Origin: Chiloscyllium plagiosum
Taxonomy: Eukaryota
NCBI RefSeq assembly: GCF_004010195.1
Contig: NC_057718.1
Span: 6,238,857 to 6,302,856 of the forward strand
DNA: 64,000 bases
Reading direction: 5' to 3'
Below, one piece after another: positions 1-64,000 of this stretch. Every line of letters starts with the position of its first letter. Positions within the stretch are counted from its first letter, which is position 1. The notes beneath the pieces are model-generated. The model was not told the origin of the DNA and made no database searches. It saw only the letters and a list, made by a program, of their open reading frames with translations. The translations under genes and the position numbers were made by a program.

Positions 1-177
1 TCCACCTATCGCATTTCCAACGCCCCTCCCCCAAGTCCCTCCTCCCTACCTTTTATCTTAGCCTGCTGGACACACTTTCCTCATTCCTGAAGAAGGGCTT
101 ATACCCGAAACATCGATTCTCCTGTTCCTTGGATGTTGCCTGACCTGCTGCGCTTTTCCAGCAACACATTTTCAGCT
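1..177 (+). mobile_element. Penelope-like element terminus (family A) with degenerate hammerhead core at 87-114
   Basis: CTGAAGAAGGGCTTATACCCGAAACATC followed by the gattctcctg...cttttccagcaacacattttcagct tail shared by many copies in this window. Confidence 0.65.
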
Positions 178-1287
178 GGTGTGTGTATGGAATGAGCTGC
201 CAGAGGAAGTGCAGGAAGCTGGCACAATTACAACATTTAAAAGGCATTTAGATGGGCATATGACTAGGAAGGGGTCAGAGGGTTATGGGTCAAGTGCTGG
301 CAAATATGCCTAGATTAATTTAGGATATCTGGTCGGCATGGCCAATTTGGACTGAAGGTTTGTTTCCATGCTGTACTTCTCTATGACGCTATATAAACCA
401 GACCACATAATGATGGAAACCTTCTTTCTTTGAAGTACATGGAAGCAGATGGATTTTTATGACCACTGGACAGTGTCATGTCCACTTTTACTGGCGCCAG
501 TTCTTTGCTTCCAGATATTTTGAAGCTGAAGTCAAGTTACCAAACTGCTGATGTTATCAACTCATAATTAATCAGGGAACCAAGGGCTGTGGGAAAAGAG
601 CAGGAAGGTGGATGTCAGGAATGTTGAATCAGCCATGATCCTATGGAATGGCGGAGTAGGCTCGATGGACTGAATAGCCTAATCCTGTTCCTTCTGATCT
701 TATGGTCTAACATTAACTGGATAACAATCAGAGACAAGAGCCCCAAACCACTGCAACATTCTAACCATTCTAACGTGACTGAAGTTAGGCTGAACTAATT
801 AGCTTCACTGAATCAGTCAACATTTTAAGATCCTTTCCTTTTGTCGCAAGCATTATCCTGTGGTAATGTGGTTAATAATCCATGCACATTGAGCGCAATT
901 TGTTTTTTTTTATTTGTACATGCTTGCACGAACAGAGACATCAATGCTCAGCCCAGTAACACATAGAAACATACACCCACTTTGCAATTTAATGGGGACC
1001 CGCCCAGAATTCTCAGAAGGTCCTGCAGAGGAATCTTCCCAAAAGGGTAAGTGTGAATGTCATGCAACTTTATAAACTTCAAAGGAAATATGCAACATCT
1101 GCCACTTTGTGAAGTATCCTATTACCTTGCAATATGAGAAAACGCTCAGCTGAGTTTTATTTAAAGCCAGCAACATGTATTTTCCTGTTCCTTGGAGTCA
1201 GGCTGCTTCAGGATTTGAATAAAAGAGGGAAACATGGGATCAAGCTCCATCTGAGAGCACCTAACCTGTTCCTTAGTGAAAGAGTCT

Positions 1288-1605
1288 CATAGAGTCCCTA
1301 TAGTATGGAAGCAGGCCATTCAGCCCATCAAGTCCAAACTGACCCTCCAAAGAGCGTTGCACCCAGACTCACCCCTGTAACCCTGCACTTCCAAGTTGAA
1401 TCAATCCAGCCTGCACATCCCTGGACACTATGGATAATTTAGCATGGCCAATCTACCTAATCTGCACATCTTTGGACTGTGGGAGGAAACAGGAGCACCC
1501 GGAGAAAACCCATTCAGACACGGGGAGAATGTGCAAACTCCATACAGAGAGTGGAATCAAACCAGGGTCCCTGACACTGTGTGGCAGCAGTGCTAACCAC
1601 TGAGT
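1288..1605 (-). mobile_element. tRNA-derived V-SINE (HE1-like)
   Basis: Reverse complement has a tRNA-like head (CTCAGTGGTTAGCA), the V-domain core gtggagtttgcacattctcccc and a CR1-like tail; many similar copies in the window. Confidence 0.8.
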
Positions 1606-2649
1606 CATTGATCTCTGATGTTCAAGATGTGGTCTGTGACCTGAACTGTCTGACAGCTTGGGTAGGGGCAAAAGATCTGAAGAAAAGAAGGGACATTCTT
1701 CCAGTATATTCCACATCATCAATAGCAGGTCACCTGATCACTTATCTCCTTGCTCTTTCTGAGGCTTTGTAACTATACTAGACAAGGAATTGGAATCTAT
1801 AGAGTGCCACAGGTTTTGTATTTAACAAGAACTATACATTGTGAACATCAAGAGTAATAAAATTGCATTGAGGTGAACAGGAATAGAACATGGTGGAGGG
1901 AGAAAAGTTAATTTATACTGCAAAAACGTTTTGCTACAGGCTGTATATGCTTGACATGGAATGGATATTGTAAATATTAAGGCCATTATAATTGTATTGA
2001 AGCCCCTATGAGATGAAAATTGTGGTGCTGGAAAAGCGCAACACACTTTTCAACTCTGGTCTCCAGCATCTGCAGTCCTCACTTTCTCCTAGTTGAAGTC
2101 CCTATGAGCCTAGTGCTGGGAAGTGGGACTACTGTAGATTTAGTGTAGATTTTAGGGGATGTAAAACTCTATGATTCTATGATAAGGGTAGAACTTGCTG
2201 TACGGAGATGAGTTGAATTTTGGTGCACCTTCTGAAACTTGCAACATTTTGGAATGTATTCCTCCAAATTTTATGCAATAAAATGTAATTTTAGAAATAT
2301 AAATTGCCTTGCTCTTTCTGAGAGCTTGCTGCAAACTCATCACCACCTTCTCAAGAGCAACCAATGACAGTAATAAATGCTGGCCAGCCAGCAACACCCA
2401 CACTGCATGAATGAGTTAAATAATTCCTGGTCACGACGTTCATGACAGCACTGAGTACGAATGGATTTCATCAACAGTGGAGTGCTTTGGGATGTCCTAA
2501 GGATTTGAAATAAATAAGGAAAAGGTGAGATTTGCATTTATGTCCCATTTGTTCGAGCAGTACTATCAATCTGAAAGTGCTTGAGAGTTAGGAACTAATT
2601 TTTGACGTGTAGTCACTTGCGTTATGCAGGAAACATGCACAGCAAGTGG

Positions 2650-9400: not shown

Positions 9401-9519
9401 ATAAATTAATGTAGCCATGATGTCCTCTGTGTATTTGAAGTTAATTTGACAGGTTGTATAAATATCACTAGTTATGAATGAACACTGTTCATACAGTAAT
9501 CATGCTGAGTAATCATGTT

Positions 9520-9828: not shown

Positions 9829-12746
9829 TTTTGTTTTTACTTGAACTAGGCAAGGAATGTAGAATCTCTTGGTACAACCAAGGCTAAGAAACCCTACAGA
9901 ATTCTGCAAACCTCAGTTGTATCACACAAAACATTTTATCGACGAACGTGATATTGAAAAGTGGGCCTCACAAGATGCATTGTCCTATCTCTCTATAGTG
10001 GCATAAAACTGACCTGAGTGACTTCCTCTGCTCATTTCAGAGGGGAATGAGATTTACAGAGAAGTCAGAATGCATCAGAGCACCAAGTTCCCTTTCCTTA
10101 AGGAAGTTACTTGGAGCCAGGTGAGTTTAAACAAAAATCCAACAACTTTTGTGGTTGGTTTTTCTCTAGTGAAAGACTAAAAGTTGCACATTTTTTTCAT
10201 GCAAAACGACAGACTTTTATTGGGATTGGTTTCAATCTCACTCCTAGTCCAGATTCCTCATCACCTACACTCTCACACTGTGTACTTATAGAAAACCTAA
10301 GGCAAGTACTGGGGTTAAGTTGTAGAATCATTAGGTTTACAGAAATCTCTGGTAGATACAGATCACCCATCATCATATTGAACGACAGATCATACAAACT
10401 TAAGGTCTGCAAGACATCCACTAATTCCTTAGGGTTTATGTTAACCTTGGGAATAAGAGTGAAGAGGATGCAAGTACATTGAAAGGATTTGAGTGTATCC
10501 AGATTCAGCAGAGGACACAGTCCAGTGGCAGAATCTATATCGCTCCACCTTTTGTGAAAACCCTCTTGAAGCAATTTCATTTTGTTTAGTTTGATTTTAT
10601 TCGGGAGACGCAGGTTATGAGGAAAGATTGCAAAGCAGGCTTTCCATCCAAGATCCGCACCATTTTTTAATCAAACAGATATGGCCTTTTCTCAAGTCAC
10701 TGCGATGTTGATTCAAAGTGGTGGTTTATAATGCTTTCTCCAATTAAACTTCACAGTTGACTGGCTCTGTTGTTTCTTTCAGTTTAATCTAAGAGGCACT
10801 TGATGCTTTTACTTTGCTGGCAGCAATGACAACCATTCGTCCCTTCCCTTCACCACCCCGAGACCATTTACAAAGCAAGAAACAGAGAATGTGGCATCAT
10901 TGAGATTAAATGAGTCAACTTTGTTTGGTGTTGCCTGCCAGGAGATGATTGCAGTGAGCCCCTGGAGATTTCACATCTCACAGTTCATCTGAGTTCTGGT
11001 CTGGTTTGAACTGATATGAAAGTTAGCAGTTATGTAAAGCAACAAGGTAAAGAGTAACAATGAGCATTTTGGTGGTAGGGTTAAGTTAGCAGATGGTCTG
11101 ATGTGTAATGTAGATTTGGAGACATCACAGGGTTCGATTACTTGATCTCAGGAGATATTTTTGAGCATGTGAACTGGTACCAGAATCTCAGCTAAGCAAC
11201 AAGGAGAAGCAATTTGTCTTCCTACATTAAATTATTAGTGACTCTACCCTGCTGGAAAATATTATTTGCACCCATGCATTGGCATGATTGCCTGTTAGGA
11301 TATTTACATTGGGCATTTGTGATGTCTATGGACATGTTGGCTTGCTTGTATGTATGCTAATGTGTGCACATGCTAGTGTTCATGTATGTTGAAGTGAGTA
11401 TGTTGGTATGTGTACACTCATGTCTTTGTGTGCATGCATGTTTATGCATTCATTATTGGTGTGTGCCCACATTGGCATCTGTGCATATTCATGTGTGATT
11501 ACAATTGGGATTTGTATGCTTTGTAAGTTTGTGTATAGAAATACTACATGGGATAAAGGAAAGATTATAAAATCGCAGACAAATCTTATGAGCTTTTTCC
11601 TAAAAATCTTCACAGGAGCAGCAGCAAAGTTTCAATAGCCTAGAACCAATCTTTTCAGCGATTACTCTCCTCAAGGGATAAGAGAAGAAAACTGTGAATT
11701 AGAGGGGAGTTGTGAAATGCTAACTAGTGCAGAGTACTGTAAATACAGTTAAATTGCTTAAATTAAAACTGCTCAGAGATAGAAAGACATTTAATATAGT
11801 TTGTAGATGAACAAAGCTAGCAGAGGAATCTAAAAGTACAAAGAAGAATTCTTGGAAGCCTTATTTTGAAGGGAGGAAGGAAATGAAATGCTGCAGTTGC
11901 AAAGGGCAGGGTGTGATGTCCAAAAGGCACTTTTGCAGATGAAGAGGAAGGGGAGAATGGGCATGGGCAGCACCAAACACGCGGAGAGTTTCTGAATGGA
12001 TGCTGATGTGCGATGGGGTGGGAAGTCATGAAATAATCTGGCAACCACTGAATCAAATACATTTCACTTTTGTGGCAATAGCTGCATGGGCAGGCTGTGG
12101 TTTCATGTATGAACATCTTCAAGGAATGCAAACTGCCCTCAAAGCATCAGCATTGTTCAAAATGGGGCAGTTACCATTGAAAGATTGGCAAGAGGCTACT
12201 TGAGTGAGGAACAGCATAACAGTCCTGCTTGAAGGCACCCTCAGTGATGTCCATACACTTGCATAAAACCTTACACTCACACTGTATGGTTTGAACTGAA
12301 GATTACAGAGGGGTAATCATAGTATTAAGAGTGTATCACAGACTTTCAGACATAAGGAAACTGAATAGCAAAAAATGCTTTGAGAAAGGCAAAAAAAAAA
12401 TCAAGAAGTAATAACTGGCCTATTATTAATGTCGATACAATTCAGATAAAAGCAAAGCAAAGAGAAAATTGATGAAGGTTTATGTCTGAAACATTGACTC
12501 ACTTGCTCCTTGGATGCTGCCTGATGTGCTGTGCTTTTTCCAGAGCTACACTTTATCAACTCTGACTTCTCCAGCATCTGCAGTCCTCACTATCTCCAAA
12601 TAGTTATTAAAACAAGCACAGTAGTTTTTAGTGTTGCCTGAAATTTTACATTCAGACTGAATTCTCAAACTGCAAATGATGGCATGTAAACGCTTATTCT
12701 CTAGATAATTACCACTCCATTCCTGAAAACAACAGCCATACAATAC

Positions 12747-13019: not shown

Positions 13020-13559
13020 CTACAATCAGAGAAAGAGACACCAATTATTTACTGGTTCTGTCGGAATGATCAGACCTTATTTTTAATGTTTCATTGTCTA
13101 TTTGTGCCCATCATTGAGAAGGCTTTCAATGATAACTTATCTCTGATTCCATAAATCGACACTTTCACATTCACTTGAATACCATTACCATATTCAAGGG
13201 TGTAATAGACAAACTTTTGATTCCTGAAGAAGGGCTTATGCCCGAAACCTCGATTCTCCTGCTCCTTGGATGCTGCCTGACCTGCTGCGCTTTTCCAGCA
13301 ACACATTTTTCAAAACTTTTCATCAGTAAGGGAATCGAGGCATATGGGGATAAGGCAGGAAAGTGGAGATGAGGATAGTCAGATCAGACATGATCTCACT
13401 GAATGGCAGAAGAGACCTGATAGGAATAGAAGTACACTATTTGGCCTATGTCTTCTGGTCATTTCACGTTGCTGGATCAAAGCTGTTTAACCTGAGCACC
13501 AACATTTATCAATAAGGCAAAAGGAAAATCAAAAGTTGATTGTTCAAAGAAAAGCCTGA

Positions 13560-16074: not shown

Positions 16075-16920
16075 GAGGATTGTATGCTGTACTATTCTGA
16101 TGAAAAGACTGTGAGGGAAGGATGTGATTGCAATGGAGGGGGTGCAGAGGACCCTCAACAGGATGTTGTCTGGGATGGAGAATTTCAACGAGGAAGAGAA
16201 GCAAGATAAGCTCAAGTTGCTTTCTCTGGAGCAGAGATGGTTGAGGGGGGATCTGATGGAGGTGTATAAGATTAAGAGGGGCATTATAAGGGGGAATAGA
16301 AAGTTAATGTAATCCTTAGTCAAAGGGTCAACAACAAGACGATCTAATTTTATGTTAAAGGCAGGAGGTTTAGAGAAGATTTGATGAATAGAGCTTCAAC
16401 CAGAAGGTGTGGAATGCATTAACTGGGAGGGTCATTAAGGCAAGGCTCTCATAATCTTCAAAAAGTACTTGGATGAGCACTTGAAGTGGTCATATCATGC
16501 AAGTCATGTTGTGAAGGAGCCGGTGTTGGACTGGGGTCGACTATGTTAAAAATCACACAATGTCAGGTTATAGTCCAACAGGTTTATTTGGAAGCGCTAG
16601 CTTTCGGAGCACTGCTCCTTCACTGTTTCCAAATAAACCTGTTGGACTATAACCTGGTGTTGTGTGATTTTTAACTATATCATGCAAGGCTATGGGCCTA
16701 ATGTAGGAAAGTAGGACCACTATGTTTGGCAGTGTACTTTTGGTAGGAGAAAGTGAGGACTGCAGATGCTGGAGATCAGAGCTGAAAATGTGTTGCTGGA
16801 AAAGCGCAGCATCCAGGGAGCAGGAGAATCGACGTTTCGGGCATGAGCCCTTCTTCAGGAAGTACTTTTGGTGACAGGGTAGATGGACTGAAGGGCTTTT
16901 TCTGTACTGTATGATTCTGT
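16075..16920 (+). mobile_element. CR1 LINE 3' fragment with two nested Penelope-derived mini-elements
   Basis: ORF remnant EGVQRTLNRMLSGM...LEQRWLRGDLMEVYKI; nested inserts at about 16504-16676 and 16745-16861 with direct-repeat flanks. Confidence 0.8.
16831..16858 (-). ncRNA. Minimal hammerhead ribozyme core, family A, intact, sense to the collagen pre-mRNA
   Basis: Minus strand reads CTGAAGA-A-GGGC-TCAT-GCCC-GAAA-CGTC. Confidence 0.7.
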
Positions 16921-17898: not shown

Positions 17899-19422
17899 CT
17901 GTAGATTGCAGAAAAATATTACAACATGAAAAGACTTCCCAAGAAATGTTCTGAACATGTAATGTAGATGTTAAGAGTTCAGTCTTTGATTGACTTCATC
18001 TATCAGGATGGATGCTACAACACAGAAACTGACCATTCGGTTTATATTCCACATGGCTACTCCCTCAACTATTCCCTGTGTGCCATATTCTCACCACTCT
18101 GATTTTAAAAAAACCTCTAGATTCCTTATTGATGATGATCTCCTAGTTATGACACCTGGTTCTGGACTTCCCCAAAATATCTTTTCCACATCTACCCTAT
18201 CAAGGTCTTTCACAATTTTAAAGGCCTCTATCAGAAAACCTCTCCATGAGACTGCCATTGCAACAGCAGCATTGGCAATGGACAAAACCATTCTGATGAA
18301 GAATCATTGGATTTGCAATATTGTTTCTGCCAGACCGATAGAGTTTCGCCAGCAATTTCTGTTTTAGTTTGTTTCAGATCTCCAGCATCTGCAGTTCTTT
18401 GTTTCATTATTCTGAGCCATTTCCATGGGTGGGGAGACTATTAATCCCAAGACTCAGGCAAGGTTCTAGGTCCTATCATGGCAGATGTTGGAATTTGAAT
18501 TTTAAAAAGTCTGGAACAATGGGTTTAATAATGACCATGCAACTGTTGTTGATTTTTTTAAAAAGCAAATTAATTATGGATGCTGTAAATCAAAAAAAAA
18601 ATCAGAAATTGCTGGAAAAGCTTAGCAGGTCTGGCAGCATCTGTAGAGAGAAATCAAAATTAGCATTTCCGGTTAAGTGACTCTGCCTCCAAACCCTTGA
18701 TTGTCAACTGATTGTTGATTTCTGGGGGAAACCCTATCTGCCTCGTTGATTTCCTTTAGGGAAGGAAGCAGCTGTCCTAATCAGGTCAGGCCTACATGTG
18801 ACTCCAGACCCACAGCAATGTGGTTGACTCATAACAGCCCTCTGGCCAATTAAGCATGGGCAATAAATGCTGGCTTAATCAGCAAAGTCCCAATGCATGA
18901 GCAAATCAATAAAAAACTTCATTCCCAACTCCCACCTCCAAACTCACAACCCTGGGAACATTCTGCACAAACCTGAGTATATTGAGTCATACAGTCGTAC
19001 AGGATGGAAACAGACCCATCTGTCCAATCAGTCCATGCTGAACATAATCCCAAACTAAACTAGCCCTACCTGCCTGCTCTTGGCCATCCAATACCTTTCT
19101 TATTTATGTACCTATCAAAATGTATTTTATTTGTTGTAATTGAACGCACATCCACCACTGCCTCAGAAAGTTCATCGCACACACGAACCACCCTCTGTGT
19201 AAAACATTTGCCTCCCATGTCTTTTTTAAATCTCTCTTCTCTCACCTTAAAAATGTTGCCCCGGTCTTGAAGTTCCCCACCCGAGGGAAAAGACAACTAC
19301 CATCATACGATCTACACTCTTCATTATTTTATAAACCTCTCAACATCCGACACTCCAGTAAAATTACTGTTTAATTCTAATGGAAAGGAAGAAGTTCTTT
19401 CCCTCTTATTAATAAATCCTAC

Positions 19423-21518: not shown

Positions 21519-21534
21519 CTGGAGGAATAAAATA

Positions 21535-21822: not shown

Positions 21823-22730
21823 CAACAGGGGGCTGTATTGACAGCAGGATTTAATGAGGATTAACCATAACACCAACACTCAAAGTAAATACAATGACAC
21901 AACATCCCAGCCAATGGTGAGGTATAGAGTATGTGAAAGGAGTGGAGCAGCTTCACCTGATTGGTCCCAGGGTTGAGAAACAGTGGTAATGAGAAGAAAC
22001 TAAAGAAAGAGGAGTTGTTCTATTTGGAACTGAGGCAGTGAAGAGGAAACTTGGTCTGGGGTTCTTGACATCTTAAAGGTTTTAATGAAACAACTAAAAA
22101 GAAAATTACAGACAGGAGGGTGTGTAATGAGAGAACACAGACTTAAAGTAATGGGAAGGCAGACAGTGAAAGAACGAGGAAAACAGTTTTGATGTAGAGG
22201 TGCTGGTGTTGGACTGGACAGGTTACAGGTTCATTTAAAATCTCAAGTTTTCAGAGCACTGCTCCTTCATCAGGTGAAGTGGAAGGAAGTGAATAGGCAC
22301 AAAATATACAGTCAAAAATCACACGACCCCGGGTTATAGTCCAACAGGTTTATTTGAAAGCATAAGCTTACAAAGCTCTGCTCCTTTTGCAAGTAGCTAG
22401 TGAGAGAGGGTATATCAGATACAAAATTTATAAGTAAAAGATCAAACGCTCATACAACTGACCCAAATGAACTGAACAAACCTAGATAGCTATTAAGTCT
22501 TTAATCAATTAGAATGGAGGTGCAGGTTTCAAGTGATTAAAATGTATATTGCAGAATTCTTTTCAAGTCACTGCACCAAGTTAATTTAAGGTTTTATCAG
22601 TATAAAAAAGGTGACAGCTCAGGTCAGAGTGTGATAGAATACTTTCCATTTGCTTGGATGATTGTAGCTCCAATAACACTCAAGAGGTTGGATACTATCC
22701 AGGACAAATTGGCCCCTTTGAATGGTAGTG

Positions 22731-22940
22731 TCTAGATTAGAGTAATGCTGGAAAAGCACAGCAGGTCAGGCAGCATCCAAGGAGCAAGAAAATTGATGTT
22801 TCGGGCAAAAGTCATCTATTCCTGATGAAGGGCTTTTGCCCAAAACGTCGATTTTCCTGCTCCTCGGATGCTGCCTGACCTGCTGTGCTTTTCCAGCACC
22901 ATTCTAATCTAGACTCTGGTTTCCAGCATCTGCAGTCGTT
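22731..22940. mobile_element. Fold-back Penelope-derived mini-element (family A)
   Basis: Two inverted copies of the family A terminus; hammerhead core at 22822-22849 has GAAA changed to AAAA. Confidence 0.65.
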
Positions 22941-25892: not shown

Positions 25893-26526
25893 CTAGGAGA
25901 GAAACAAAACATATGTAAACCAGCAAATATGTTCATTCATTTTCTGACATTAAACCACAACTATACATCCCTGGACTGATGTGGACGAGCCATGTTGGAC
26001 AAAGTTAAAATCACACAACACCAGGTTATAATCCAACAGGTTTATTTGGAAACACTACATTTCAGGTAGACAACTACCTGATGAAGGAGCAGTGATCCAA
26101 AAGTTGGTGCTTCCAAATAAACCTGTTGGACTGTAACTTGGTGTTGTGTGATTAGCAACTTTAACCCTGGACTCAACAGCATTATGTGAGCTGGTTCATG
26201 AAGCGAATAAACATGTGTGCAGCTGATTGTAAATATTTTAACCAACTGTTCGAAGATGCTATGACACATCTCTGAAGCATGGAGAATGTGAACCCAGACC
26301 TTCTAGCCCAGAGACAGGGACAACACCACTCCATCTCAACAGCCCTAAAAGGATATAGCAGACAATGCATGGCTCAAACCCATGACTGAGGCGAAGAGTC
26401 TGACAATCTACTTACTGAGTCACCTGGGAGTCTCACAGTATTCATCTGCAATAAACGATGAGGGGCATGAAAATGTTCACACACAGTCCAAAAGGGGGCA
26501 GCAGATTCCCTTCCTTGAAGAATTTG

Positions 26527-26744
26527 TGATTTGGAGATGTCGGTGTTGGACTGGGGTGTACAAAGTTAAAAATCACACAACACCAGGCTATAGTCCATCA
26601 GGTTTACTTGGAAGCACTAGCTTTCAGAGTGGCGCTCCTTCATCAGGTGGTTGTCAATCACCTGATGAAGGAGCAGCGTTCTGAAAGCTAGTGCTTCCAA
26701 TTAAATCTGTTGGACTATAACCTGGTGTTGTGTGATTTTTAACT
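26527..26744. mobile_element. Fold-back Penelope-derived mini-element (family B) with two hammerhead cores
   Basis: Inverted arms; cores at 26618-26646 (-) and 26662-26690 (+); flanking direct repeat ttgaagaatttg at 26515-26526 and 26745-26756. Confidence 0.75.
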
Positions 26745-27078
26745 TTGAAGAATTTGATTGAACCAGACAGGTTTTCTTTAACAATTCAGCAATTTTTGGA
26801 GTCAATATTTTTCTTTTATTCTGGTGCTAGACCAGAAAAGGACAGGTTTATTTAGTTCACTTTCACAATTGGTCATTGATAGAATTTGAGCTTATGGTCC
26901 TTAGGTTCCTACCAAAATATCTATCCATGCTCTTTAATCTGAGCATTAACTAGTGTAACAGGTGTCATAAATAGAACACAGCATGCACACATTATAAACG
27001 ATTGCGTATATGCATGTACCAATATATTTTTAATACCCTTAATCCATATATAGGCTTTAAGATGCAGTTTGCACCTAC

Positions 27079-44245: not shown

Positions 44246-44953
44246 TTAAACAGCCTAATAAGGTTCATATCCTCTGTTCACATTTGCCTTGGACTCCAGA
44301 ATGTAACAATCATTACTTGACATCAGAAGAACAATTTCAACTTGAGGCAAAAGAAGTTGGATAGAAGAAGAAAAAGTTCATATCACTTAAGACCTCAAGT
44401 AAAACTAGTGCCTCACTTTTCCATGTGGAATTAAATGCAAAAGATTTGTTTAGGTCTGGAACTTATTTTCTTTATTCATTTATGGGATGAGAGCATCACT
44501 TACTAGGCAGCATTTATTGCCTAGAGGGCAGTTAAGAGTCAACGTGGGTCTGGAGTCACATGTCCGCCAGATCAGGCAAGGACAGGAGTTGCTTTCTCTA
44601 AGGGATATTAGTGACGCAAATGGGATTTTCGAGCAATTGATTCATGGTCATCATTAGACTCTTCACTCCAGGTTTCCCTTTTTATTAAATTCAAATCCTA
44701 CTATCTGCTGTGGTAGGATTTGAGCCCAGGTCCCTCAAAACATTATCTGGGTCTCTGGCTCAATAGGCCATCACCTCCCCTTTAACCAATTTACTGTTGC
44801 AGCTAAGTGAAAGCTTTAGGCATTAAATTACTGTGGTCAAAAGGGCTGCACTAATTGTTAATTGGTGCATCCCAGATTACATTATGTATGAGCTGAAAAT
44901 GTGTTGCTGGAAAAGCGCAGCAGGTCAGGCAGCATCCAAGGAACAGGAGAATC

Positions 44954-44981
44954 GACGTTTCGGGCATAAGCCCTTCTTCAG
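44954..44981 (-). ncRNA. Minimal hammerhead ribozyme core, family A, intact
   Basis: Minus strand reads CTGAAGA-A-GGGC-TTAT-GCCC-GAAA-CGTC. Confidence 0.7.
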
Positions 44982-45072
44982 GATCTGATCTCCAGCATCT
45001 GCAGCCCTCACTTTCTCTCTACATTATGTATGAGTCAGGTTCTGCTTGTGTGCAAACAATTCATAGTCTGCA

Positions 45073-45100
45073 CTGAAGAAGGGCTAATGCCCGAAACGTC
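45073..45100 (+). ncRNA. Minimal hammerhead ribozyme core, family A, intact
   Basis: CTGAAGA-A-GGGC-TAAT-GCCC-GAAA-CGTC. Confidence 0.7.
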
Positions 45101-45929
45101 GATTCTCCTGTTCCCTAGATGCTGCCTGACCTGCTGCGCTTCTCCAGCAACACATTTCCATCCATAGTCTGCACTGTCTCACCTGGGGACTGATAGCTCG
45201 TAGTGTTCTGAATTGTTCTTGGAAAGGAAGGTCCTGAGTGCAGAACCATTATCTCAGGAAAGTAAAACAGTAATAGCAACCACCACGTCTCTGACATTTC
45301 ATAATATGTAATTTACCATGTGTACTGTTGTATGTGAGTGGCTGCACAGGCACATCCAAGTTAAGGAGTTGCATATACATGGATGTCAATGCATAAAAGA
45401 AGATCTTGCATTTGTGTAAAACAAACGCAGTAAATGAGAAACTCAGCATGTCTGGCAGCATCTGTGGAGAGAGAAACAGAATTAACGTTTTAAGTCCAAT
45501 ATGATGTCTTCAGACCAGACTTGAAAACAGTAACTTCTTTTTTCACACCACAGATACTTCCAGACCTCCTCAGTTTCTCCAGCATTCTCTGTGTTTGTTT
45601 CAGATTTACAGCATCTGCATTATTTTGCTTTTATTCATGAATTTATATAGCCATTTTCAGACCACAACCCCCCTTACAACCAATGAGATATTTCTGATGT
45701 GCAGTCAATGTTGCAATTTAGCAAACAGGGGGTGGCAGGGTGGCTCAGTGGTTAGCATTGTTGCCTCACAGCGCCAGGGACCCAGGTTTGATTCCACCCT
45801 TTATGGAGTTTGCACATTCTCCCTGTGTCTGTATGGGTTTCTGCTCCAGTTTCTTCCCATGGTCCAAAGGTGTGCAAGTTAGGTGGATTTGCCATGCTAA
45901 ATTGCCCATAGTGTCCAGGGACGTGTAGG

Positions 45930-46215: not shown

Positions 46216-49200
46216 GGAACAGCAGTGAGTCCATCCCTCCATCAGAACTTGGAGAGAAACCTTGCTTCAGCTAACCATGGAGACACAGGCTATAAGTTAT
46301 GTTCCCCAGGCCTGCACTAGAGGATGTGATCCCCCAAAGGCTGCTGGACAATTGCAACACTTCAGTTCTTTTCAGTCTCACTTAGAGCAGTGGCCATTGC
46401 AGGAATTGCAACAGACCAGAGAGTGGTGAATCGATGGAATTCACTGCCACAGAAGGCTGTAGAGGCCAGGTCATTGAGTGTATTTAAGACAGAGATAGAT
46501 AGGTTCTTGAGTATCAAGTGGATCAAGGAGAGAAAGTGGGAGAATGGGATTGAGAAACCTATCAGCCATGATTGAATGGCGGAGCAGACTCAACAGGTTG
46601 AATGGCCCAATTTCTGCCCCTACGTCTTATGGTCATAAGATGTAGAAGCCAAGTATGTGGAGTTCACAGAAGCCAATCAGGCTGGCAATGAACTGGAAAT
46701 GGGAGAATGGTGAGTTTGGGGGAGAGGAGTGGCCAGATTGGTTCTGCGACCAGGGTTGTCTTTCAATGGGCAGAGACGTTGGCAAGGGCCACACAAACAG
46801 GAGCCCATGAGGAGGCTTACCCGTCAGTCTTCACATGTGGAACAGTGCCCGTCAGTGCTGGTGCTGGCTGTGTACAGGCTTCGATTGGACCCTGATATAC
46901 GTGAGGCCATCTGCCACTTACAACATTGCTGTTAAATGCCAGCAGCAAGACAACCATCATCAACCATTCCTGATGATTTTACACACAGCTCCTTCCAGAA
47001 AGCACACTCTTTAGGACTCTGTAAAACTAAGACACTGGGGTGGATCAAGAACCTTCTACCTTCAGGCTCAGAGATGATAGCACTGCCCATTGAGCCGAGT
47101 AGCACTGATGCCTGAACGTAACCACTGTATTCATGGTATCCCATCAGAATAAATAGTTCTCCCAGTGGTTAGGCTATCTTCCAACTCAAAGGGAGAGTAA
47201 ATGTCCCCTGGATCTTGAGGTATGCATGGTGGTGATACATCACCAGAGTAGCTATACCTAACTAATAATGTAATGAGTAAAAAAAATGCTATCCAGTCAA
47301 GAAAATAATGTATTTGTTTACCATGGTGATAAGCAGGGCCTGATAGTGAAAATCCTAAAGATAGCGACTGTAATGTTACTGTTGGCAACTTTATGTATAG
47401 ATTTATTTAAAACCACTCTTATCCATGATGTAACCTCTGCATATTATCATTATTATGTTCAAATCCCTCCATTACCTTAACCCTCCCAATCTCTATGACT
47501 TTCTCTGGCCCTACAACTGCAAGTGAACAATGATTTTTTTTTAAATTCTGGTCTCCTGCATGTTCATGATTTTTGTTAATCCACCCTTGGCTGCGTGCCT
47601 TCAGCTGTCTGGGCATGAAGCTCTGCAATTTCCTCCCTAATTATTATCTCCACCTTTCTGCTTTCTTTAAAGCTGATCTCTTTGAACTAGCTCTAGGCTG
47701 TCTCTATCTCCCTCTTTTGTTCACTGTCAATTTTGTGTCTGACTGCACTTTTGTGATGTCCCTTTGAAAGTTTTGCTACTTGAGAAACATTTAGGGACTT
47801 TTGGCCTGAATAGCCGACCTTCGCTTTTATGTCTTCTGGGCTTATAATGAAGGGAACTAAAGGGTATGGAGTTAAGATAGGAATTTGGAGCTGAGGATTA
47901 TCAGTGTACCCATGATCTTCTTGAATGAAGGAGCAGACTTGATGGGCTGAATGGCCTATTTCTGCACCTACATCTTATGGTCTATCTAAATGTGATTTGT
48001 TGCTGTTGTTCTAACTGATCAGTGCCCCAGTCATTGCCTCTTCACAGATGAAATATCTGTTATAAACAGTTTACTTGATTGAATAGGACTTGAATTTTGC
48101 TGAAAATAAAGACATGTTGCCAAAGCTTCTCATCTTGAATTCATCAAGTCAAATACAAGAATGCCAAATTTCAAACAATCAGGCAACAAACAAAGGACAT
48201 AGTCTCAGGATAAGCATTTAAGACTGTGGTGAGGAAGAATTTCCTCACTGAAATGGCAGTGAATTTTTGGAATTCCATATCTTAGAGGACATCACATCAT
48301 TGAGTATCTTCAAGACTGTGATCAATGTATTTCTATGTATTAAATATAGCAAGTGCTAGGTGGGTAACTCAGGAAAGTGGAGTTGAGTTAAAAGATCAGC
48401 CATAAACTGATTGATTGGCAGAGCAGGTTTGAGAGGCCAAATGCCCTATTCTTGCTCCTATTTCCTGTGATCACAGTAATATATAATATGAGAACAAGGT
48501 GCTGATTGGTTGACAAGTCAACTGTGATCATGCTCATACAACTTAAAACAAATTATACACTGCTTGATGAGATTCTGTGATTAGGCAGGACTTGCTGAAC
48601 AATCCTAAGTACGCTGATAGATAGTAACACTAACTTCCAATTGAAGATAATCATTTGAGCTCATAGTGTGTCTAAATTACGCTTGCTAGAGGTAACATAT
48701 TAAGTGATACAAAGGGACCAATTCTCTGCAAACAAACAGAATCTAGCAAAAGCAAAAAAAGCAAAACTCAACAGGTCTGGCAGCATTAATGTTTTGGATC
48801 CAATGCGCTTCTGTCAGTTCTGTAGAAGAGTCACTGGACCCAAAATATTAACATTGCTTTCATCCACAGATGCTGCCAAACCTGCAGAATTTCTCCAGCA
48901 ATTTCTATTATTGTTTCAGACTTCCAGATCCACAGTTCTTTGCTTCAATTCAGGCAGAGTGCCTGAAGGGTGGAGAGATGGCCTTTGGGCACTCTTCCTG
49001 TATTCCTGATGAAGGGCTTTTGCCCGAAATGTCAATTTTCCTGCTCCTTGGGATGCTGTCTGAACTGCTGTGCTTTTCCAGCACCACTCTAATCTCGACT
49101 CTGGTTTCCAGCATCTGCAGTCATTGTTTTTACTGAATTACCCAGGAGCTTGGGGAGCCTCTAGGTTCCCATTGTTCTCTCCACAGCAGTACCTGTGTCA

Positions 49201-50499: not shown

Positions 50500-50999
50500 N
50501 NNNNNNNNNNNNNNNNNNNNNNNNNNNNNNNNNNNNNNNNNNNNNNNNNNNNNNNNNNNNNNNNNNNNNNNNNNNNNNNNNNNNNNNNNNNNNNNNNNNN
50601 NNNNNNNNNNNNNNNNNNNNNNNNNNNNNNNNNNNNNNNNNNNNNNNNNNNNNNNNNNNNNNNNNNNNNNNNNNNNNNNNNNNNNNNNNNNNNNNNNNNN
50701 NNNNNNNNNNNNNNNNNNNNNNNNNNNNNNNNNNNNNNNNNNNNNNNNNNNNNNNNNNNNNNNNNNNNNNNNNNNNNNNNNNNNNNNNNNNNNNNNNNNN
50801 NNNNNNNNNNNNNNNNNNNNNNNNNNNNNNNNNNNNNNNNNNNNNNNNNNNNNNNNNNNNNNNNNNNNNNNNNNNNNNNNNNNNNNNNNNNNNNNNNNNN
50901 NNNNNNNNNNNNNNNNNNNNNNNNNNNNNNNNNNNNNNNNNNNNNNNNNNNNNNNNNNNNNNNNNNNNNNNNNNNNNNNNNNNNNNNNNNNNNNNNNNN
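50500..50999. other. Assembly gap (500 N)
   Basis: Run of N. Confidence 1.
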
Positions 51000-57445: not shown

Positions 57446-59389
57446 TAGGTGATTACAAATGGCAATTGCTGGTTGGTTAGGATAGTGGAGAGAACAATAA
57501 AGGCAATTTGACTACTCAATGATTAGTTTGCATTTCTTCTATCAGTACAGGAAGAAACACAACTTCAGACTCCCCTTGGTCTTTGACGTTGATGGTGTGT
57601 TGAAGTCACCAAACTGCTTGTGTATGGCAGATTAAGGGTTGATTTGAATGTGGTGTTTTCTCTGTTGGGGCAGTCACAATTGGGGGTGATGCTGAGGATA
57701 AAAACACATATTGTGTTTATTGTAAATATGGAATTGTCTCACAAAACATGGATGAATCTGAGGGTTTAATTGAAAATGTCAACACTGAGATTGACAGATC
57801 TTTAATCAGGTATGAGTGTTAAAGAAAAGAGTCGGTAAAGTAGAATTCAGCTGTGGATTGTCTATGATCTAATAAGGTCGAGAATGGTCTGATTAACCAA
57901 CCCCTGTTCCAATGTCACTATAAGGAAGGATAGTTACTGTGAAGCTCAGCTCTATTTCCATTTAGTTAAGGTCAACAAGATGAGCTCATTCTAGCAGTAT
58001 CCAGCTGAACTATGCTCCTACAAACAGTTGCCAGCAGACACAATGTACATTAGAATAAATGCTGCAAACTTGAGAAGGATCCCACCATGCAAACTATTCT
58101 GAAAACAAACAATTCAACATTCCTGGGAACATAAAACATTCCATGCACAACATTACTTCATTAAAAGAACACAAGAAAAGAGAGACTTTGATGACCTGGA
58201 TTCTGTTTCGAGAAGAACTACAAAGCAAAATCCTTGATGAAAGATACCAGGAAAAAGTGAGTAAGTGTTTCTTTCAGTCTTCTAGCTAGATTTCTGAGCT
58301 GCCTAAGCTTGACTCTGGAAATGAAGAAGCTGTCTTAGGAAGAGAGTTTAAACAGTTAAGGCCTATACTCACTGTGTTTTAAAGATTGAGGTGTATAAGA
58401 TGTTAAAGGGGATTGACAAAATAGACGTAGAGATGATGTTTCCTCACGTTGGACATTCTAGAATGAGAGATCATAGTTTTCGGATAAAGGGTATTTAAAG
58501 TAGAGATGAGGAGAAATTATTTCTCTCAAAGGTTTGTAAATCTGTGGAATTCACTCCCCCCCCAGAATATGGTGGATGCTGGGGCATTGAGTAAATTTAA
58601 GAAGCAGATGGACAGATTTTGAATTAGTAACAGGTTGAAGGGTGATGGAAAGCAGGCAGGAAAGTGAAGTTGAGGCTGAGACAAGAGCAGCCATGATTGT
58701 AATAAACAGTGGAACAGGCTGGACGGGCTGAATGACACACTCATGCTCCTAGTTCTTATGTTCTTATGAGCTTTTGAGGTACTTTATGCTCAAATGCAAG
58801 TGAGAATATGGGGGAAGAGGTTCAAACCAGTTCCAAATTGAGGACTGACATCAGGACATTCTTCATGGCTTGATGGGTAGTTTGAATTTTTACATAATGG
58901 CATATTTAAATACAGGGTGAAAGTGAGTACTGCAGATGCTGGAGATTAGAGACAAGAGTGTGGTGCTGGCAAAGCACAGCAGGTCAGGCAGCATCCAAGG
59001 AGGAAAATGATGAAGGGCTTTTGCCCGAAACGTCGATTTCCTGCTCCTCGGAAGCTGCCTGACATTCTGTGCTTTTCCAGCACCACACTCTTGACTCATA
59101 CTTAAATATATTTCTATCTCCATTAAAATCAATGTAAGAGTGAAATCAGGCAGGGTGCAATCTGGGTAGTCAATTCACATTGCACCATTGTCTAACAGCA
59201 AAGCTACCTCAGATCTGTGAGTGACAAATGGAATAACATTCAATAAACAGAGTGGAGGCCAAACTGAGAAATATTTAAGGAACACTGGAAAGCTGCAATG
59301 AAACAGTAAAGTTTTGGATCTCTCTGGAAAGATGAATGGAAATGAGCTGAATGGTCATTCTTTTCAGTCATTGTTTTGTTGCCATAGAT

Positions 59390-60820: not shown

Positions 60821-62289
60821 CAGCCACTGGAGAAATATTGTGCATTGGTTGCTATTTCCAGCATCACTATTTTCCTCACCTAATAATAATTGAAATTCCT
60901 TTATCACTGCTTTTAAAAAAATGTTCGATTTTGGGACATTGTGGTTTTTGAACAGTTGGATTAGAGTCAGTACAAATGTACTCAGATGAGGAAATTTATG
61001 ACAAGACTCATTCAGTTCTGCCAGGATTGAATAGAAATGTGATTGTTTTTCAAGAAGAAAGTTTAAAAAAAGCATCCGTGGGGTTTATTGCAACACAGCT
61101 CAAAAAGCAGAAGACTTTTAAATCATCTGAACTGCAGACGAGTTGTAAACTCCAGAGATAGAAAGGAGGAACTTAATGTCCTAATTGTAATATTTCCCTT
61201 ATGCAAGCAATCTTGTAGAGAAAATGGGTTATAAGTTCCATTATTTTCGGCAAATGTATGCCCTATACATTACAAGAGGATGTGGGCTAAGTGATTTACT
61301 CAAACGAGTGAAAAGATGGATGATTGAATTCCCAGTGAGAGTAATTGAGTGGAGTATATGAAGTTATTGCATTATGGCTTCACACTCAGACCCAGAAAGC
61401 CAGAATTTCACAATTTCTGGCACTGAACACGAAGATATAATTTAATCAAGGTGTTCAGATGCTGTCTATTACTCGGATTCAAACTGAAATAGGTTCCACA
61501 TTTGAACAGACTTGAATTTTTTTATTTGTCCAATGATGCTAATTCCCAGCTTGCCTCAGCCAAGTGACATGCATGTAGGCATAGCCAGTGAATACAGACT
61601 GGTAGATAATGTATTGCATCATATGCCACTCACACTCTGTCATTCATTGACCAGCCCACCGAAGAACATCCTTCAACAAAAACAGAAACTCAGCAGGTTC
61701 TGTGGAGGGAGAAACAGAGCTAATATTTCAAGTCTAGTATAACTCTTCGGAACTCACTTTCACCGAAAAACATCCGACTATGCTTTATATCCCTTTAGGC
61801 AGCCTGGCAAAGTTCATCATTCCATTCACATCACAAAGCTCATCCTTCATTCACACTTGTCCCGTGCTCACAAAACTGAAAATCCTTTCCCTCAATGGCT
61901 CACTAAAGATCATCCAAGTTTATTTTTGCATTAGTCTATCAAACATCAGCCTTCATTAAATTCCATCCTGGTAGCCGGTCATCAGACCTAGTGCCTTTCT
62001 TTTTGCTATCTGGATGGGTACATGAATAGGAAAGGTTTAGTGGGATATGGATTAAATGCTGGCAAATGGGACTGCGTTAATTAAGGATATCTGGTTGGCA
62101 TGGACGAGTTGAACCAAAGGGTCTGTTTCTGTGCTGTACATCTCTGTGACTCTATGACCTCACCCCTCCTGATCTCTGTAATCTTCTCTAGCCACACATC
62201 TCTCCAAGATATCTGTGTTCCTCTAATTCTGGCCTTCTAGTTTGAACATCTCCACAATTGGCTATGCCGTTGGTTGCCTGGGTTCCACA

Positions 62290-62648
62290 GTCATGGAATC
62301 ACTGCATCCCCACAGTGTGGAAGCAGGCCATTCAGCCCATCGAGTCCACATTGACCCCCTGAAGATCATCCCACCAAGACCCAGCTCCCCTACCGTATCG
62401 CTGTAAACCTGCATTTCCCATGGCTAATCCATCTAGCCTGCACACTATGAAACAATTTAGCATGGCCAACCCACCTTACCTGCACATTTTTGGACTGTGG
62501 GAGGAAACTGGAGCACCCGGAGGAAACCCACACAGACATGGGGAGAACGTGCAAGCTCCACACAGACAGTCGCCCAAGGCAGGAATTGAATCCAGGTTTC
62601 TGGCGCTGTGAGGCAGCAGTGCTAATCACTGAGCCACCATGCTGCCCC
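62290..62648 (-). mobile_element. V-SINE (HE1-like)
   Basis: Head, core and tail match the other copies. Confidence 0.8.
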
Positions 62649-64000
62649 CAATCATGTAGCCCCTCCCTGAAACTGACCATCTCTGCATCTTAACTTTCTC
62701 TCTTCGCATATTCCTTAAAACGATTTGACTAAGCTAATATTCTTTCAAGTGACTGTGTGTCATATTTTATTTTTTAATTGCCTTTGGGACACCTTATTAC
62801 ATTAGAGGTGCTATATGAATACAAGTTGTTGTTGTAGCATTTTAATGCAGGGATACTTTGTTAAGATACTTGACAGCAGCCAAGAGTTGACCAGAAATTG
62901 GAGTAATGTATTATTCAGACTTGTGGACATTAGGTTTTATCCCCTAAATGTCATTGATTAGGATTTTACTGAGTGGCAATTGATTTTTCAAGTTATCAGT
63001 TGATGTAATGAAATTTGAATTCATATTTTTTTGAACTTTAAGTCTACTATTCTGGATTACTAATCATATATCATAGCAGCAACTCCACCATTACATTTGG
63101 CTTAAGTCTAAGTATCATTTCACTGGTGTATTGAAGAGATTGCAAAACACAAATTCTGGCTTTACAACAAAAAAGTCATAGTTATTTCAAGCTGGAGACG
63201 GCTGCCTTGGACTGGCATCCCATTTATTTCTCTTGTGTTTTAAGCCATATTGAACTCAGATGAAGCGGGTCATAGCTCTTGCTGTCGACTGGCAAACCTT
63301 ACCTCGGAAGCTCATAGCTGAATGCAAAAAGCCCTTGGAAAATTTGATGTAGTGCTGTTACTAAAATAAAAAAAAACGTAAATGAATACATGGACATGAA
63401 GCAATCAAAAGGCTACACAACCCAATCACAGAGCCAATGCAAAAAACATGAAGCGCTGCTCCAGGGTCAACTTCCAACAGAACAATCCACAGAGAAGATG
63501 TGGATTGTTTCTTTTGTTCGTGGTATGCGGGTGTCATTGGCTGGGCCAGTGTTTGTTCCATGTCCCTATTAACTCTGAAGAAGATGGCGGCGGGAACCCA
63601 TTCAAATACTTAACAGCCGTCGAGGTGTGTTCATTACATTCACATTGGTGAATGACCCTTTGGTTTCACTTATAAATTCTATTTCCAATATATCATCCTT
63701 CACTAGTGCTGAAGAAGGAGCTGGGCTCCGAGAGCTTGTGTTTTCAAATAAACGTTTCGACTATAACCCGGTGTCATGTGATTTTTGACTTTGTTAACCC
63801 CAGTCCAACTCTTCCACGTGGCTCTGAAACTGCTGCAGTCCATGTGCTATAAATAGACCCACAATGGCTGTTGGGGAGGGAATTCTGAGATTTTTGACTC
63901 AGTGACAGTGAAGTAACAGTGATATATTTCCAAGTCATTATGGTGAGTGGCTTGGAGGGGAACTTGCAAGGGGTGGTGCTGCCATGTATCTGCTGCCCTT

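What the first reader, a model, noticed from the sequence alone, without database searches (positions are those of the whole stretch)
87..63737. Dispersed population of minimal hammerhead ribozyme cores in two covarying short-element families
Seen: family A has the form CTGA(A/T)GA-A-GGGC-4nt-GCCC-GAAA-CGTC at 87-114(+), 13224-13251(+), 16831-16858(-), 22822-22849(+), 44954-44981(-), 45073-45100(+), 49006-49033(+) and 59007-59034(+). Family B has the form CTGA(T/A)GA-A-GGAGC-3nt-GCTCC-GAAA-GCT(A/T) at 22245-22273(-), 26078-26106(+), 26618-26646(-), 26662-26690(+), 63709-63737(+) and, truncated, 16598-16622(-). The families share nothing obvious outside the core, yet both keep CUGANGA, GAAA and an NUH triplet. 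Stem II (GGGC/GCCC versus GGAGC/GCTCC) and the helix III palindrome (ACGT versus AGCT) change together. Established: Penelope-like retroelements carry minimal type I hammerheads with a palindromic, rudimentary helix III that cleave as dimers. Inference: these are non-autonomous shark Penelope derivatives spreading ribozyme cores through a gene. Caveats: helix I is only 2-3 bp in these copies, there is one extra A after CUGANGA, and about half the copies have core mutations.
Basis: partly seen in the sequence, partly recalled or inferred. Interest (0 to 1): 0.8.

Follow-up and report, generated by a model that had tools for sequence, protein, structure and literature searches.

The report
Penelope retroelement tails carrying minimal hammerheads
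The short repeats are the tail ends of Penelope-like jumping genes of a shark-type genome, each carrying the stripped-down hammerhead ribozyme motif already known from such elements, here in unusually large numbers.

Summary
All 14 sites hold the stated motifs. Only 3 of 8 family A sites and 0 of 5 full-length family B sites match their family pattern at every fixed position.

[quoted passage not shown] The copies show published PLE insertion marks.

The motif meets the sequence features published for PLE minimal hammerheads (PMC4209133).

It is very abundant in the genome:
- 86,254 exact family A matches and 17,286 exact family B matches, against 0 for reversed controls.
- 18,360 further motifs of at least four other families, against 244 for controls.

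Helices I and II covary between families.

Self-cleavage was not tested. Rfam hammerhead models do not score these sites.

One point is unexplained: most short copies begin at the 5' edge of the motif, not at the predicted cleavage site.

The scan has noted PLE hammerheads in other genomes but none in this one. Verdict: a new member of a known kind.

The parts
1..177 (+). Family A1 copy with 86 nt of PLE 3' UTR upstream (cut by the window start). Motif at 87-114, with 2 changes.
12470..12597 (+). Diverged family A copy (78% to an A1 reference) with tail.
13208..13309 (+). Family A1 solo unit. Motif at 13224-13251 (16.2 G>C). Short direct repeat AAACTTTT at the flanks.
16746..16861 (-). Family A1 solo unit with a 3' tail. 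Intact motif at 16831-16858. 11-nt target duplication ACCAAAAGTAC.
22746..22937 (.). Family A2 head-to-head pair: left arm 22746-22811(-), right arm 22818-22937(+). Motif at 22822-22849 (G12>A).
44890..45017 (-). Family A1 unit 44890-44983 with an intact motif at 44954-44981. Tail-like piece at 44984-45017 on its 5' side. Flanked by CTCATACATAATGTA on both sides.
45073..45160 (+). Family A1 solo unit that starts at C3 of CUGA. Intact motif at 45073-45100. Target duplication CATAGTCTGCA.
49002..49122 (+). Family A2 copy. Motif at 49006-49033 (15.2 C>T).
58913..59092 (.). Family A2 head-to-head pair: left arm 58913-59002(-), right arm 59008-59092(+). Motif at 59007-59034 (C3>A).
16520..16676 (.). 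Family B head-to-head pair: 16520-16622(-) with the truncated motif at 16598-16622, and 16624-16676(+).
22225..22386 (-). Family B pieces: 22225-22277 with the motif at 22245-22273 (2 changes), and a second 3' fragment at 22310-22386.
25996..26162 (.). Family B head-to-head pair: 25996-26063(-) and 26070-26162(+). Motif at 26078-26106 (4 changes).
26527..26747 (.). Family B head-to-head pair: 26527-26654(-) with tail and motif at 26618-26646; 26655-26747(+) with motif at 26662-26690.
63709..63809 (+). Family B copy. Motif at 63709-63737 (A14>G).
18609..18641 (-). 33-nt fragment of the family A 3' region, without the motif.

Best explanation
These are the 3'-terminal modules of at least two unrelated families of endonuclease-bearing Penelope-like retroelements (PLEs) of an elasmobranch-type genome. 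Each carries a minimal type I hammerhead motif (min-HHR).

The motif reads: short helix I, CUGANGA, one unpaired base, helix II starting with G10.1-C11.1, GAAA, then a palindromic A-C-G-U or A-G-C-U in place of helix III, then the cleavage base (GUC or CUA).

How the copies arise: the element is copied from its RNA by its own reverse transcriptase at a nick made by its GIY-YIG endonuclease. This usually gives 5'-truncated copies, often with an inverted truncated partner, a 36-38 nt tail at one end only, and target duplications of about 8-15 bp. That is why the motif is scattered through the introns of the host gene.

How the motif would work: one motif alone cannot form helix III. Two copies on one RNA, or on two RNAs, could pair through the palindrome to build two swapped active sites that cut after C17 or A17. 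The published proposal is that this processes multimeric or read-through PLE transcripts.

Shown here: motif, abundance, covariation, element architecture and ORF linkage.
Inferred from the literature: dimeric self-cleavage and its role.
For: 1. ORF link, family B.
- An 80-aa endonuclease piece upstream of the motif finds 150 of 150 scored places at E<1e-38, from 35,951 first-look candidates.
- Its named relatives are shark proteins. One, P0009, is 643 aa with RVT_1 (E 5e-9), PADKGG and CX4CXXC...YIGKT.
- tblastn with P0009 gives 70-81% identity in the genome's own loci. A same-strand B motif lies about 455-690 nt downstream in 7 of 12 loci chosen by the peptide.
- The genome's own RT piece passes the Pfam RVT_1 cutoff, 35.4 against 29.6 bits. 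Its own N-terminus has KPADKGG.

2. ORF link, family A.
- 8 of 16 loci chosen by the ORF's C-terminal peptide carry an A motif about 110-210 nt behind the peptide's end, about 160 nt after the ORF's stop where that can be read (e.g. L069).
- The L072 ORF aligns to the endonuclease part of P0009 (E 5e-8).
- L067 has a PLE N-terminus (39-61% identity to P0009 aa 25-131), then the ORF end, then the motif.

3. PLE insertion marks.
- Of 30 loci, 12-13 are head-to-head pairs. 20 have exactly one tail (12 at the 3' end, 8 at the 5' end) and 0 have both.
- Among the first 100 sites of a 37-mer from the family A 3' region there are 18 (-,+) pairs, 0 (+,-) pairs and 2 same-strand pairs.
- Four ORF-bearing family B copies about 3-3.7 kb long (ORF mostly withheld) each have an inverted arm of 226-432 nt, one tail and an 11-15 bp target duplication.
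- All of this matches the description in PMC8557442 (passages).

4. Min-HHR features of PMC4209133.
- The extra base is present in 51 of 51 A and 26 of 26 B instances (A in 25, G in 1).
- G10.1-C11.1 is present in all 14 aligned sequences.
- 15.2-16.2 is CG in 41 of 51 A and GC in 25 of 26 B.
- H17 is C, A or U.

5. Covariation.
- Four further families (C-F) share the core but have different helices: 18,360 against 244 for controls.
- On 14 sequences of 5 families, 82.1% of cells are paired against 59.2 +/- 4.1 when shuffled (0 of 500). Slid partners give 16-45%.
- GAGC...GCTC (a compensated pair) occurs 1,255 times, nearly all as one haplotype. The uncompensated GAGC...GCCC occurs 2,164 times, spread over the A haplotypes.
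Against: - No Rfam hammerhead family scores any copy, even at E<=10 on a 301-nt stretch holding two intact copies. This is expected for a motif without helix III, but it means there is no independent model-based call.
- Family A helix I is only G-C, A-U, a U.U mismatch, then U-A.
- Most genomic copies are solitary or paired on opposite strands, so they cannot form the dimer in cis.
- Copy ends do not coincide with the predicted cleavage site. Only 3 of 48 family A and 1 of 15 family B copies start there.
- The literature reports very low in vitro activity for metazoan min-HHRs (PMC4209133).
- For family A the reverse-transcriptase stretch itself was not seen; it is withheld in the loci that carry it. 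The Pfam GIY-YIG hit is below cutoff (E 0.094).
- Families C, D and F were not linked to ORFs.
Confidence: 0.72

Rival explanations
1. Same elements, different job. The conserved hammerhead-shaped module is kept mainly as the RNA handle that the PLE reverse transcriptase or endonuclease recognises, or as the point that sets the template's 5' end. Self-cleavage would then be negligible or incidental.
For: - The commonest inserted unit is exactly 'helix I 5' strand + motif + 57-60 nt 3' end'.
- 16 of 30 anchor-chosen copies, 26 of 48 incidental family A copies and 7 of 15 incidental family B copies start within a few nt of C3. So nearly all retrotransposed copies keep the module.
- Ends at the predicted cleavage site are rare (3 of 48; 1 of 15).
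- Published in vitro activity is low, and PLE clades without hammerheads proliferate well (PMC4209133; PMC8557442 passages).
Against: - The 11 core bases needed for catalysis are invariant across six families whose helices differ. A mere protein handle would not need this.
- Hammerheads of fungal PLEs do cleave well (PMC4209133).
- No protein-RNA data exist here.
Confidence: 0.22
2. The elements are foldback or MITE-type DNA transposons, or microRNA-like hairpin genes, and the hammerhead-like core is a by-product of a palindromic repeat.
For: - Complete pairs are long imperfect palindromes.
- Rfam gives weak miRNA-precursor matches to them: MIR845_1 32.4 bits against gathering 81; MIR6136 38.7 against 99.
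- The tail looks like a terminal inverted repeat when seen at either end.
Against: - Single arms are at least as common as pairs.
- The tail is never at both ends (0 of 30).
- Target duplications vary from about 8 to 15 bp.
- Longer copies run upstream into RT/endonuclease ORFs.
- All miRNA matches are far below gathering scores.
Confidence: 0.02
3. The motif is a chance resemblance in the 3' tail of an ordinary LINE/SINE pair, with a stem-loop used for reverse-transcriptase recognition.
For: - The stem-loop lies near the 3' end.
- Copies are 5'-truncated and have target duplications.
Against: - The linked ORFs carry a C-terminal GIY-YIG-type domain and a DKG motif, not an AP or REL endonuclease.
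- Six families keep CUGANGA, GAAA, G10.1-C11.1, the extra base and the palindrome while everything else differs.
- A generic descriptor is 75-fold above its reversed control.
Confidence: 0.02

Closest known systems
Minimal hammerheads (min-HHR) of metazoan Penelope-like elements (Cervera and De la Pena 2014, PMC4209133; main text read)
   Same: - Core boxes, and an unpaired base between A9 and G10.1.
- G10.1-C11.1, and palindromic 15.2-16.2 with no helix III loop.
- Short helix I.
- Several covarying families per genome.
- Most motifs dispersed as single truncated copies, or as opposite-strand pairs 100-700 bp apart.
- Location in PLE terminal regions.
   Different: - Host is a cartilaginous fish. 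My searches for a printed report on sharks found none.
- Helix II is 4-6 bp rather than the 7-8 bp described for Schistosoma.
- Numbers are far higher than the about 4,000 (coelacanth) and about 9,000 (Xenopus) quoted there: at least 121,900 pattern matches, summing.
Small hammerhead variants with diminished stem III that cleave as dimers (Lunse, Weinberg and Breaker, RNA Biol 2017). The paper is not held and is known here only through passages of PMC6765202.
   Same: Palindromic, extremely short stem III; type I topology; association with PLEs; dimer model.
   Different: No kinetics here. I could not check whether shark sequences are in their set.
Non-LTR retrozymes of animals (PMC7229834, search listing only; Li et al. 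2026 preprint, 10.64898/2026.07.22.740005, abstract and Results part 1 read)
   Same: Short non-coding units with type I hammerheads, related to PLE pLTRs. Monomer copies are dispersed, including in introns.
   Different: - Retrozymes are defined by head-to-tail tandem arrays that give circular RNAs. Here same-strand neighbours are rare: 2 among the first 100 sites, against 18 head-to-head pairs.
- Circular RNAs were not examined here.
- The preprint's maximum was 14,255 copies in a genome.
Canonical type I hammerheads (Rfam hammerhead families)
   Same: The same 11 core bases, and the same order of helix I, core, helix II, GAAA and cleavage triplet.
   Different: - No helix III stem-loop and no loop-loop tertiary contacts.
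- Not detected by any Rfam model.

Membership tests
PLE minimal hammerhead (min-HHR) | CUGANGA and GAAA boxes in type I order, with an NUH cleavage triplet | tested here: met
   -.
- H17 is C in 48 of 51 A, A in 25 of 26 B, and U or C in families C-F.
- In the window itself only 3 of 13 full-length sites are unmutated.
PLE minimal hammerhead (min-HHR) | One unpaired nucleotide between A9 and G10.1 | tested here: met
   A in 51 of 51 family A and 25 of 26 family B; T in 5 of 5 D and 2 of 3 C; A in E and F.
PLE minimal hammerhead (min-HHR) | Conserved G10.1-C11.1 closing helix II, with helix II covarying between families | tested here: met
   - G-C in 14 of 14 aligned sequences.
- The next pair is G-C in 5, U-A in 5 and A-U in 4.
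- The compensated GAGC/GCTC subfamily has 1,255 copies.
PLE minimal hammerhead (min-HHR) | No helix III loop; palindromic 15.2-16.2, so that two motifs can pair | tested here: met
   - ACGU in families A, C, D, E and F; AGCU in B.
- CA or TG variants occur in 9 of 51 family A instances, which fits CpG decay.
PLE minimal hammerhead (min-HHR) | Short helix I flanking the motif | tested here: met
   - family B has G-C, U-A, G-C (92-96% paired). C and D have 3 bp, F has 4-5 bp, A has 2 bp, a U.U mismatch, then 1 bp.
- 3 of 4 helix I pairs change on both sides between families.
PLE minimal hammerhead (min-HHR) | Lies in the terminal (pLTR / 3' end) region of an element encoding RT plus GIY-YIG endonuclease | tested here: met
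   - Family B.
- Family A: endonuclease end and N-terminus seen. The RT stretch is withheld in the loci at hand, and the Pfam GIY-YIG hit is sub-threshold.
- Families C-F: not tested.
PLE minimal hammerhead (min-HHR) | Self-cleavage, as a dimer | not testable with these tools
   - Needs transcription and cleavage assays.
- RNAcofold of two A1 copies pairs GAAACGUCGAUUC between the molecules, in a different register from the ACGU helix III. This decides nothing.
Rfam hammerhead families | Score at or above the family's gathering threshold | tested here: not met
   - No hammerhead match at gathering.
- None at E<=10 on the whole window or on 44880-45180.
Non-LTR retrozyme | Head-to-tail tandem repeats of hammerhead-bearing units | tested here: not met
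   -, first 100 sites: 2 same-strand pairs (168 and 219 bp apart) against 18 head-to-head pairs.
- No tandem array in the window.
MITE / foldback DNA transposon | Terminal inverted repeats at both ends, with a fixed-length target duplication | tested here: not met
   - The tail is at one end only in 20 of 30 loci and at both in 0 of 30.
- Duplications are about 8-15 bp.

The most novel reading that the evidence does not exclude
In two unrelated PLE families the preferred retrotransposed unit starts at the 5' strand of helix I. In head-to-head pairs both arms stop there.

If this is not a by-product, the hammerhead fold itself defines the 5' end of a roughly 85-130 nt mini-template. It could do so as a transcription or processing boundary, or as the site where the reverse transcriptase stops or jumps. 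That would make 'hammerhead + 3' end' the minimal mobile unit of these PLEs.

It would also give the motif a role other than, or additional to, cutting at C17, and would explain how a vertebrate genome came to hold over 100,000 hammerhead motifs.
Probability: 0.2. Interest if true: 0.6.

Novelty: new member of a known kind. Interest (0 to 1): 0.35.

Why it matters
The function of the hammerheads carried by Penelope-like elements is still unknown.

What this genome offers:
- Very large natural families: at least six, with more than 120,000 pattern matches.
- Clear helix covariation between families, and an amplified compensatory subfamily.
- A sharp pile-up of copy starts at the motif's 5' edge.

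This makes it a good system for asking whether the motif cuts, binds the element's enzyme, or marks the template end.

For annotation, the result explains an abundant class of hairpin-like short repeats in shark introns. These could otherwise be taken for MITEs or microRNA precursors.

Tried and rejected
- **Rfam.** No hammerhead match at gathering, at E<=10 on the whole window, or at E<=10 on 301 nt holding two intact copies. Only sub-threshold miRNA-precursor matches appeared, caused by the inverted pairs. I rejected the miRNA reading.
- **MITE / foldback reading.** Rejected; see the rival explanations.
- **Pfam on the 80-aa and 76-aa endonuclease pieces.** Nothing.
- **Word-index protein search with the 54-aa family A peptide.** Nothing.
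- **PDB sequence search with P0009.** Nothing.
- **RNA evidence.** No RNA holder was listed. I laid two raw single-cell polyA RNA runs and two contig runs on L069:1300-1950.
  - X19 gave 760 reads, none over the motif part (bins 1762-1871).
  - X20 gave 0 reads.
  - There were no pile-ups of ends.
  - This is uninformative about expression or cleavage.
- **Family D linked to a B-type ORF in L028.** Rejected. The 118-nt D unit is a nested insertion in the CA-rich part of the B element's 3' UTR.
- **Automated search for target duplications.** Noisy. Only the matches of 11 nt or more were used.
- **MAFFT alignments.** MAFFT put family B one column out of register. One reference with wrong-strand coordinates spoiled alignment A2. 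The formal pair count therefore covers families A, E, F, C and D only, and only the outer two pairs of helix II.
- **'Open frames' of up to 925 aa.** These are inflated by withheld N stretches and were not used.
- **Lunse et al. 2017.** Could not be read.

Full report
**Observation.**
- Family A reads CTGAWGA-A-GGGC-N4-GCCC-GAAA-CGTC. Three of the eight sites (16831, 44954, 45073) match at every fixed position. The other five carry one or two substitutions, among them G12>A at 22822 and C3>A at 59007.
- Family B reads CTGAWGA-A-GGAGC-N3-GCTCC-GAAA-GCTW. None of the five full-length sites is unmutated, and 16598-16622 lacks the first four bases.
- The loose pattern CTGAWGA-N6-20-GAAA occurs 11 times in the window against 2.74 +/- 1.67 in shuffles, with 0 of 100 shuffles reaching 11.
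- In the genome that holds the window (3.56 Gb), the exact family patterns occur 86,254 and 17,286 times. The reversed controls give 0.

**Anatomy of the copies.**
- The motifs are not free-standing. They lie near the 5' end of units of about 85-130 nt that share a fixed 3' end.
- Family A ends at ...CACATTTTCAG, 57-60 nt after the predicted cleavage site. Family B ends at ...GTGATTTTTAAC.
- I examined 30 loci chosen with a 22-mer that spans the family A cleavage site (71,202 matches).
  - 12 (script) to 13 (by eye) are head-to-head inverted pairs.
  - 20 carry a 36-nt tail at exactly one end (12 at the 3' end, 8 at the 5' end in reverse complement). None carries it at both.
  - 7 extend at least 9 nt, in several cases more than 100 nt, upstream of the motif into shared sequence.
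- Among the first 100 listed sites of a 37-mer from the family A 3' region (60,377 matches), 36 form 18 pairs at most 405 bp apart. In every pair the minus-strand copy comes first. There are no pairs in the opposite arrangement and two same-strand pairs (read by eye).
- Target duplications of about 8-15 bp flank solo copies and pairs.
- Four ORF-bearing family B elements, about 3-3.7 kb long with the ORF mostly withheld, each show a target duplication, one tail, an inverted 5'-truncated arm of 226-432 nt carrying a minus-strand motif, the body, and the plus-strand motif.
- This is the architecture described for PLEs: strong 5' truncation, an inverted truncated copy at the 5' end, and a 30-40 bp tail at one end (PMC8557442, passages).

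**Link to Penelope ORFs, family B.**
- In L015 an ORF with ...WYIGETEQRLRQLMNGHR... lies upstream of the motif.
- The genome search with that piece scored 150 of 150 places at E<1e-38, from 35,951 first-look candidates.
- A word-index search of longer proteins returned 26 proteins, mostly annotated from shark genomes. Among them is P0009, at 643 aa.
- P0009 has RVT_1. Read from its sequence, it also has a PADKGG motif, a CX4CXXC linker and VVYLIRC...WYIGKT...R..R..GH at the C-terminus. This is an RT followed by a GIY-YIG-type endonuclease, the domain order that defines canonical EN+ PLEs (PMC8557442).
- tblastn with P0009 against my loci gave 70-81% identity. A same-strand B motif lies about 455-690 nt after the ORF end in 7 of the 12 peptide-chosen loci.
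- An RT piece from the genome itself passes the Pfam cutoff. A decayed N-terminus from the genome has KPADKGG.

**Link to Penelope ORFs, family A.**
- The C-terminal peptide ...LGTLQPQGMNADF had 51,362 first-look candidates.
- 8 of 16 loci carry an A motif about 110-210 nt behind the matched peptide, about 160 nt after the ORF's stop where it can be read (e.g. L069).
- The L072 ORF (CKTC...IIYRIRCTRCGLLYIGETGR) aligns with the endonuclease part of P0009 (E 5e-8).
- L067 has a PLE-type N-terminus.
- The family A RT stretch itself reads N in the loci that have it, and the Pfam GIY-YIG hit is below threshold. The family A link therefore rests on the two ends of the ORF.

**Is it a hammerhead?**
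- The motif meets the four features that Cervera and De la Pena list as emerging from PLE min-HHRs:
  - covarying families within a genome;
  - a base between positions 9 and 10.1;
  - G10.1-C11.1;
  - palindromic 15.2-16.2 (PMC4209133).
- I parsed 90 distinct instances from the window and loci.
  - The extra base is present in 51 of 51 A and 26 of 26 B instances (A in 25, G in 1).
  - 15.2-16.2 is CG in 41 of 51 A, with CA or TG in 9, as CpG decay would give. It is GC in 25 of 26 B.
  - H17 is never G in the family patterns.
- A generic descriptor that excludes A and B found 18,360 matches against 244 for its reversed control. It revealed four more families:
  - C: GUYACC/GGURAC;
  - D: GUCGCC/GGGGAC;
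  - E: GAGC/GCUC;
  - F: GAGUC/GACUC.
- E and F share flanks and tail with A, so their helix II changes happened within one lineage.
- Helix I differs by family but stays paired: GA/UC in A, GUG/CAC in B, UGA/UCA or UGG/CCA in C, UGC/GCA in D, AGCU/AGCU in F.
- On a 14-sequence alignment of A, E, F, C and D, I counted helix I plus the two outer pairs of helix II.
  - 82.1% of cells are paired against 59.2 +/- 4.1 in shuffles (0 of 500).
  - The covariation score is 0.645 against 0.230 (0 of 500).
  - Slid partners give 16-45%.
  - The sequences are related, so these figures are descriptive.
- The uncompensated GAGC...GCCC occurs 2,164 times, spread over the A1, A2 and A3 haplotypes, as neutral decay would give. 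The compensated GAGC...GCTC occurs 1,255 times, almost all as one haplotype (N7 = U with loop UUAU), which marks an amplified lineage.
- Against all this, no Rfam hammerhead model scores any copy.

**Mechanism.**
- Shown here: what the elements are, how they sit in the DNA, and that the helices are under selection in the lineages that amplified.
- Inferred from the literature: a single min-HHR cannot form helix III. Two copies can pair through ACGU or AGCU to form two swapped active sites. Activity is low in vitro. The proposed role is processing of multimeric PLE transcripts (PMC4209133; PMC6765202 passages).

**An unexplained regularity.**
- Copy starts pile up at the 5' edge of the motif.
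  - 16 of 30 anchor-chosen family A copies start within about 3 nt of C3.
  - 26 of 48 incidental family A copies start between -6 and +3. One caveat: the alignment stops early in A2 and E copies.
  - 7 of 15 incidental family B copies start between -9 and +3.
  - Starts defined by target duplications lie between -12 and +2.
- In pairs, both arms usually stop there.
- Starts at the predicted cleavage site are rare (3 of 48; 1 of 15).
- I could not test the causes. [quoted passage not shown]

**Novelty.**
- The kind is known.
- Three searches for a printed report of hammerheads in shark PLEs found nothing specific. One preprint includes a single chondrichthyan in a retrozyme survey.
- The numbers exceed those quoted in the papers I read: about 4,000 and 9,000 in PMC4209133, and a maximum of 14,255 in the preprint.

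**Not informative.** The RNA runs gave no useful signal.

Noticed in passing
window 15036-15701(-) and 17405-17995(-): Exons of a matrix or collagen-like protein: a VWA domain (E 2.7e-55) and an fn3 domain (E 2.6e-11). The PLE fragments lie around them, presumably in introns.
   Followed up: partly
family A and B copies genome-wide; in the window e.g. 13208, 16861, 44983, 45073: Copy 5' ends cluster at the 5' edge of the hammerhead motif in both families, not at the predicted cleavage site. Unexplained.
   Followed up: partly
window 45093-45105 and other A1 copies: GAAACGUCGAUUC is an imperfect 13-nt palindrome. RNAcofold pairs it between two copies, in a register different from the ACGU helix III of the hammerhead dimer.
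   Followed up: no
L028:1911-2028: A 118-nt family D unit is nested in the CA-rich microsatellite of a family B element's 3' UTR. This fits the microsatellite insertion bias reported for PLEs.
   Followed up: yes
window 50500-50999: A run of 500 N: an assembly gap or a withheld stretch.
   Followed up: no
window 56882-57367(-) and 49201-49752(-): Open frames of 162 and 184 aa with no Pfam match. The first looks like the C-terminal end of another retroelement ORF (my impression, not tested).
   Followed up: partly
L034:278-739(-): A LINE-type reverse-transcriptase-like open frame on the opposite strand, next to a family A copy (read by eye).
   Followed up: no
runs of organisms B, C and D: Runs labelled as three other organisms hold 16-30% of the sampled words of window 44800-45300. 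These words are probably the repeat part, so family A may be shared with related species. I did not lay these runs.
   Followed up: no
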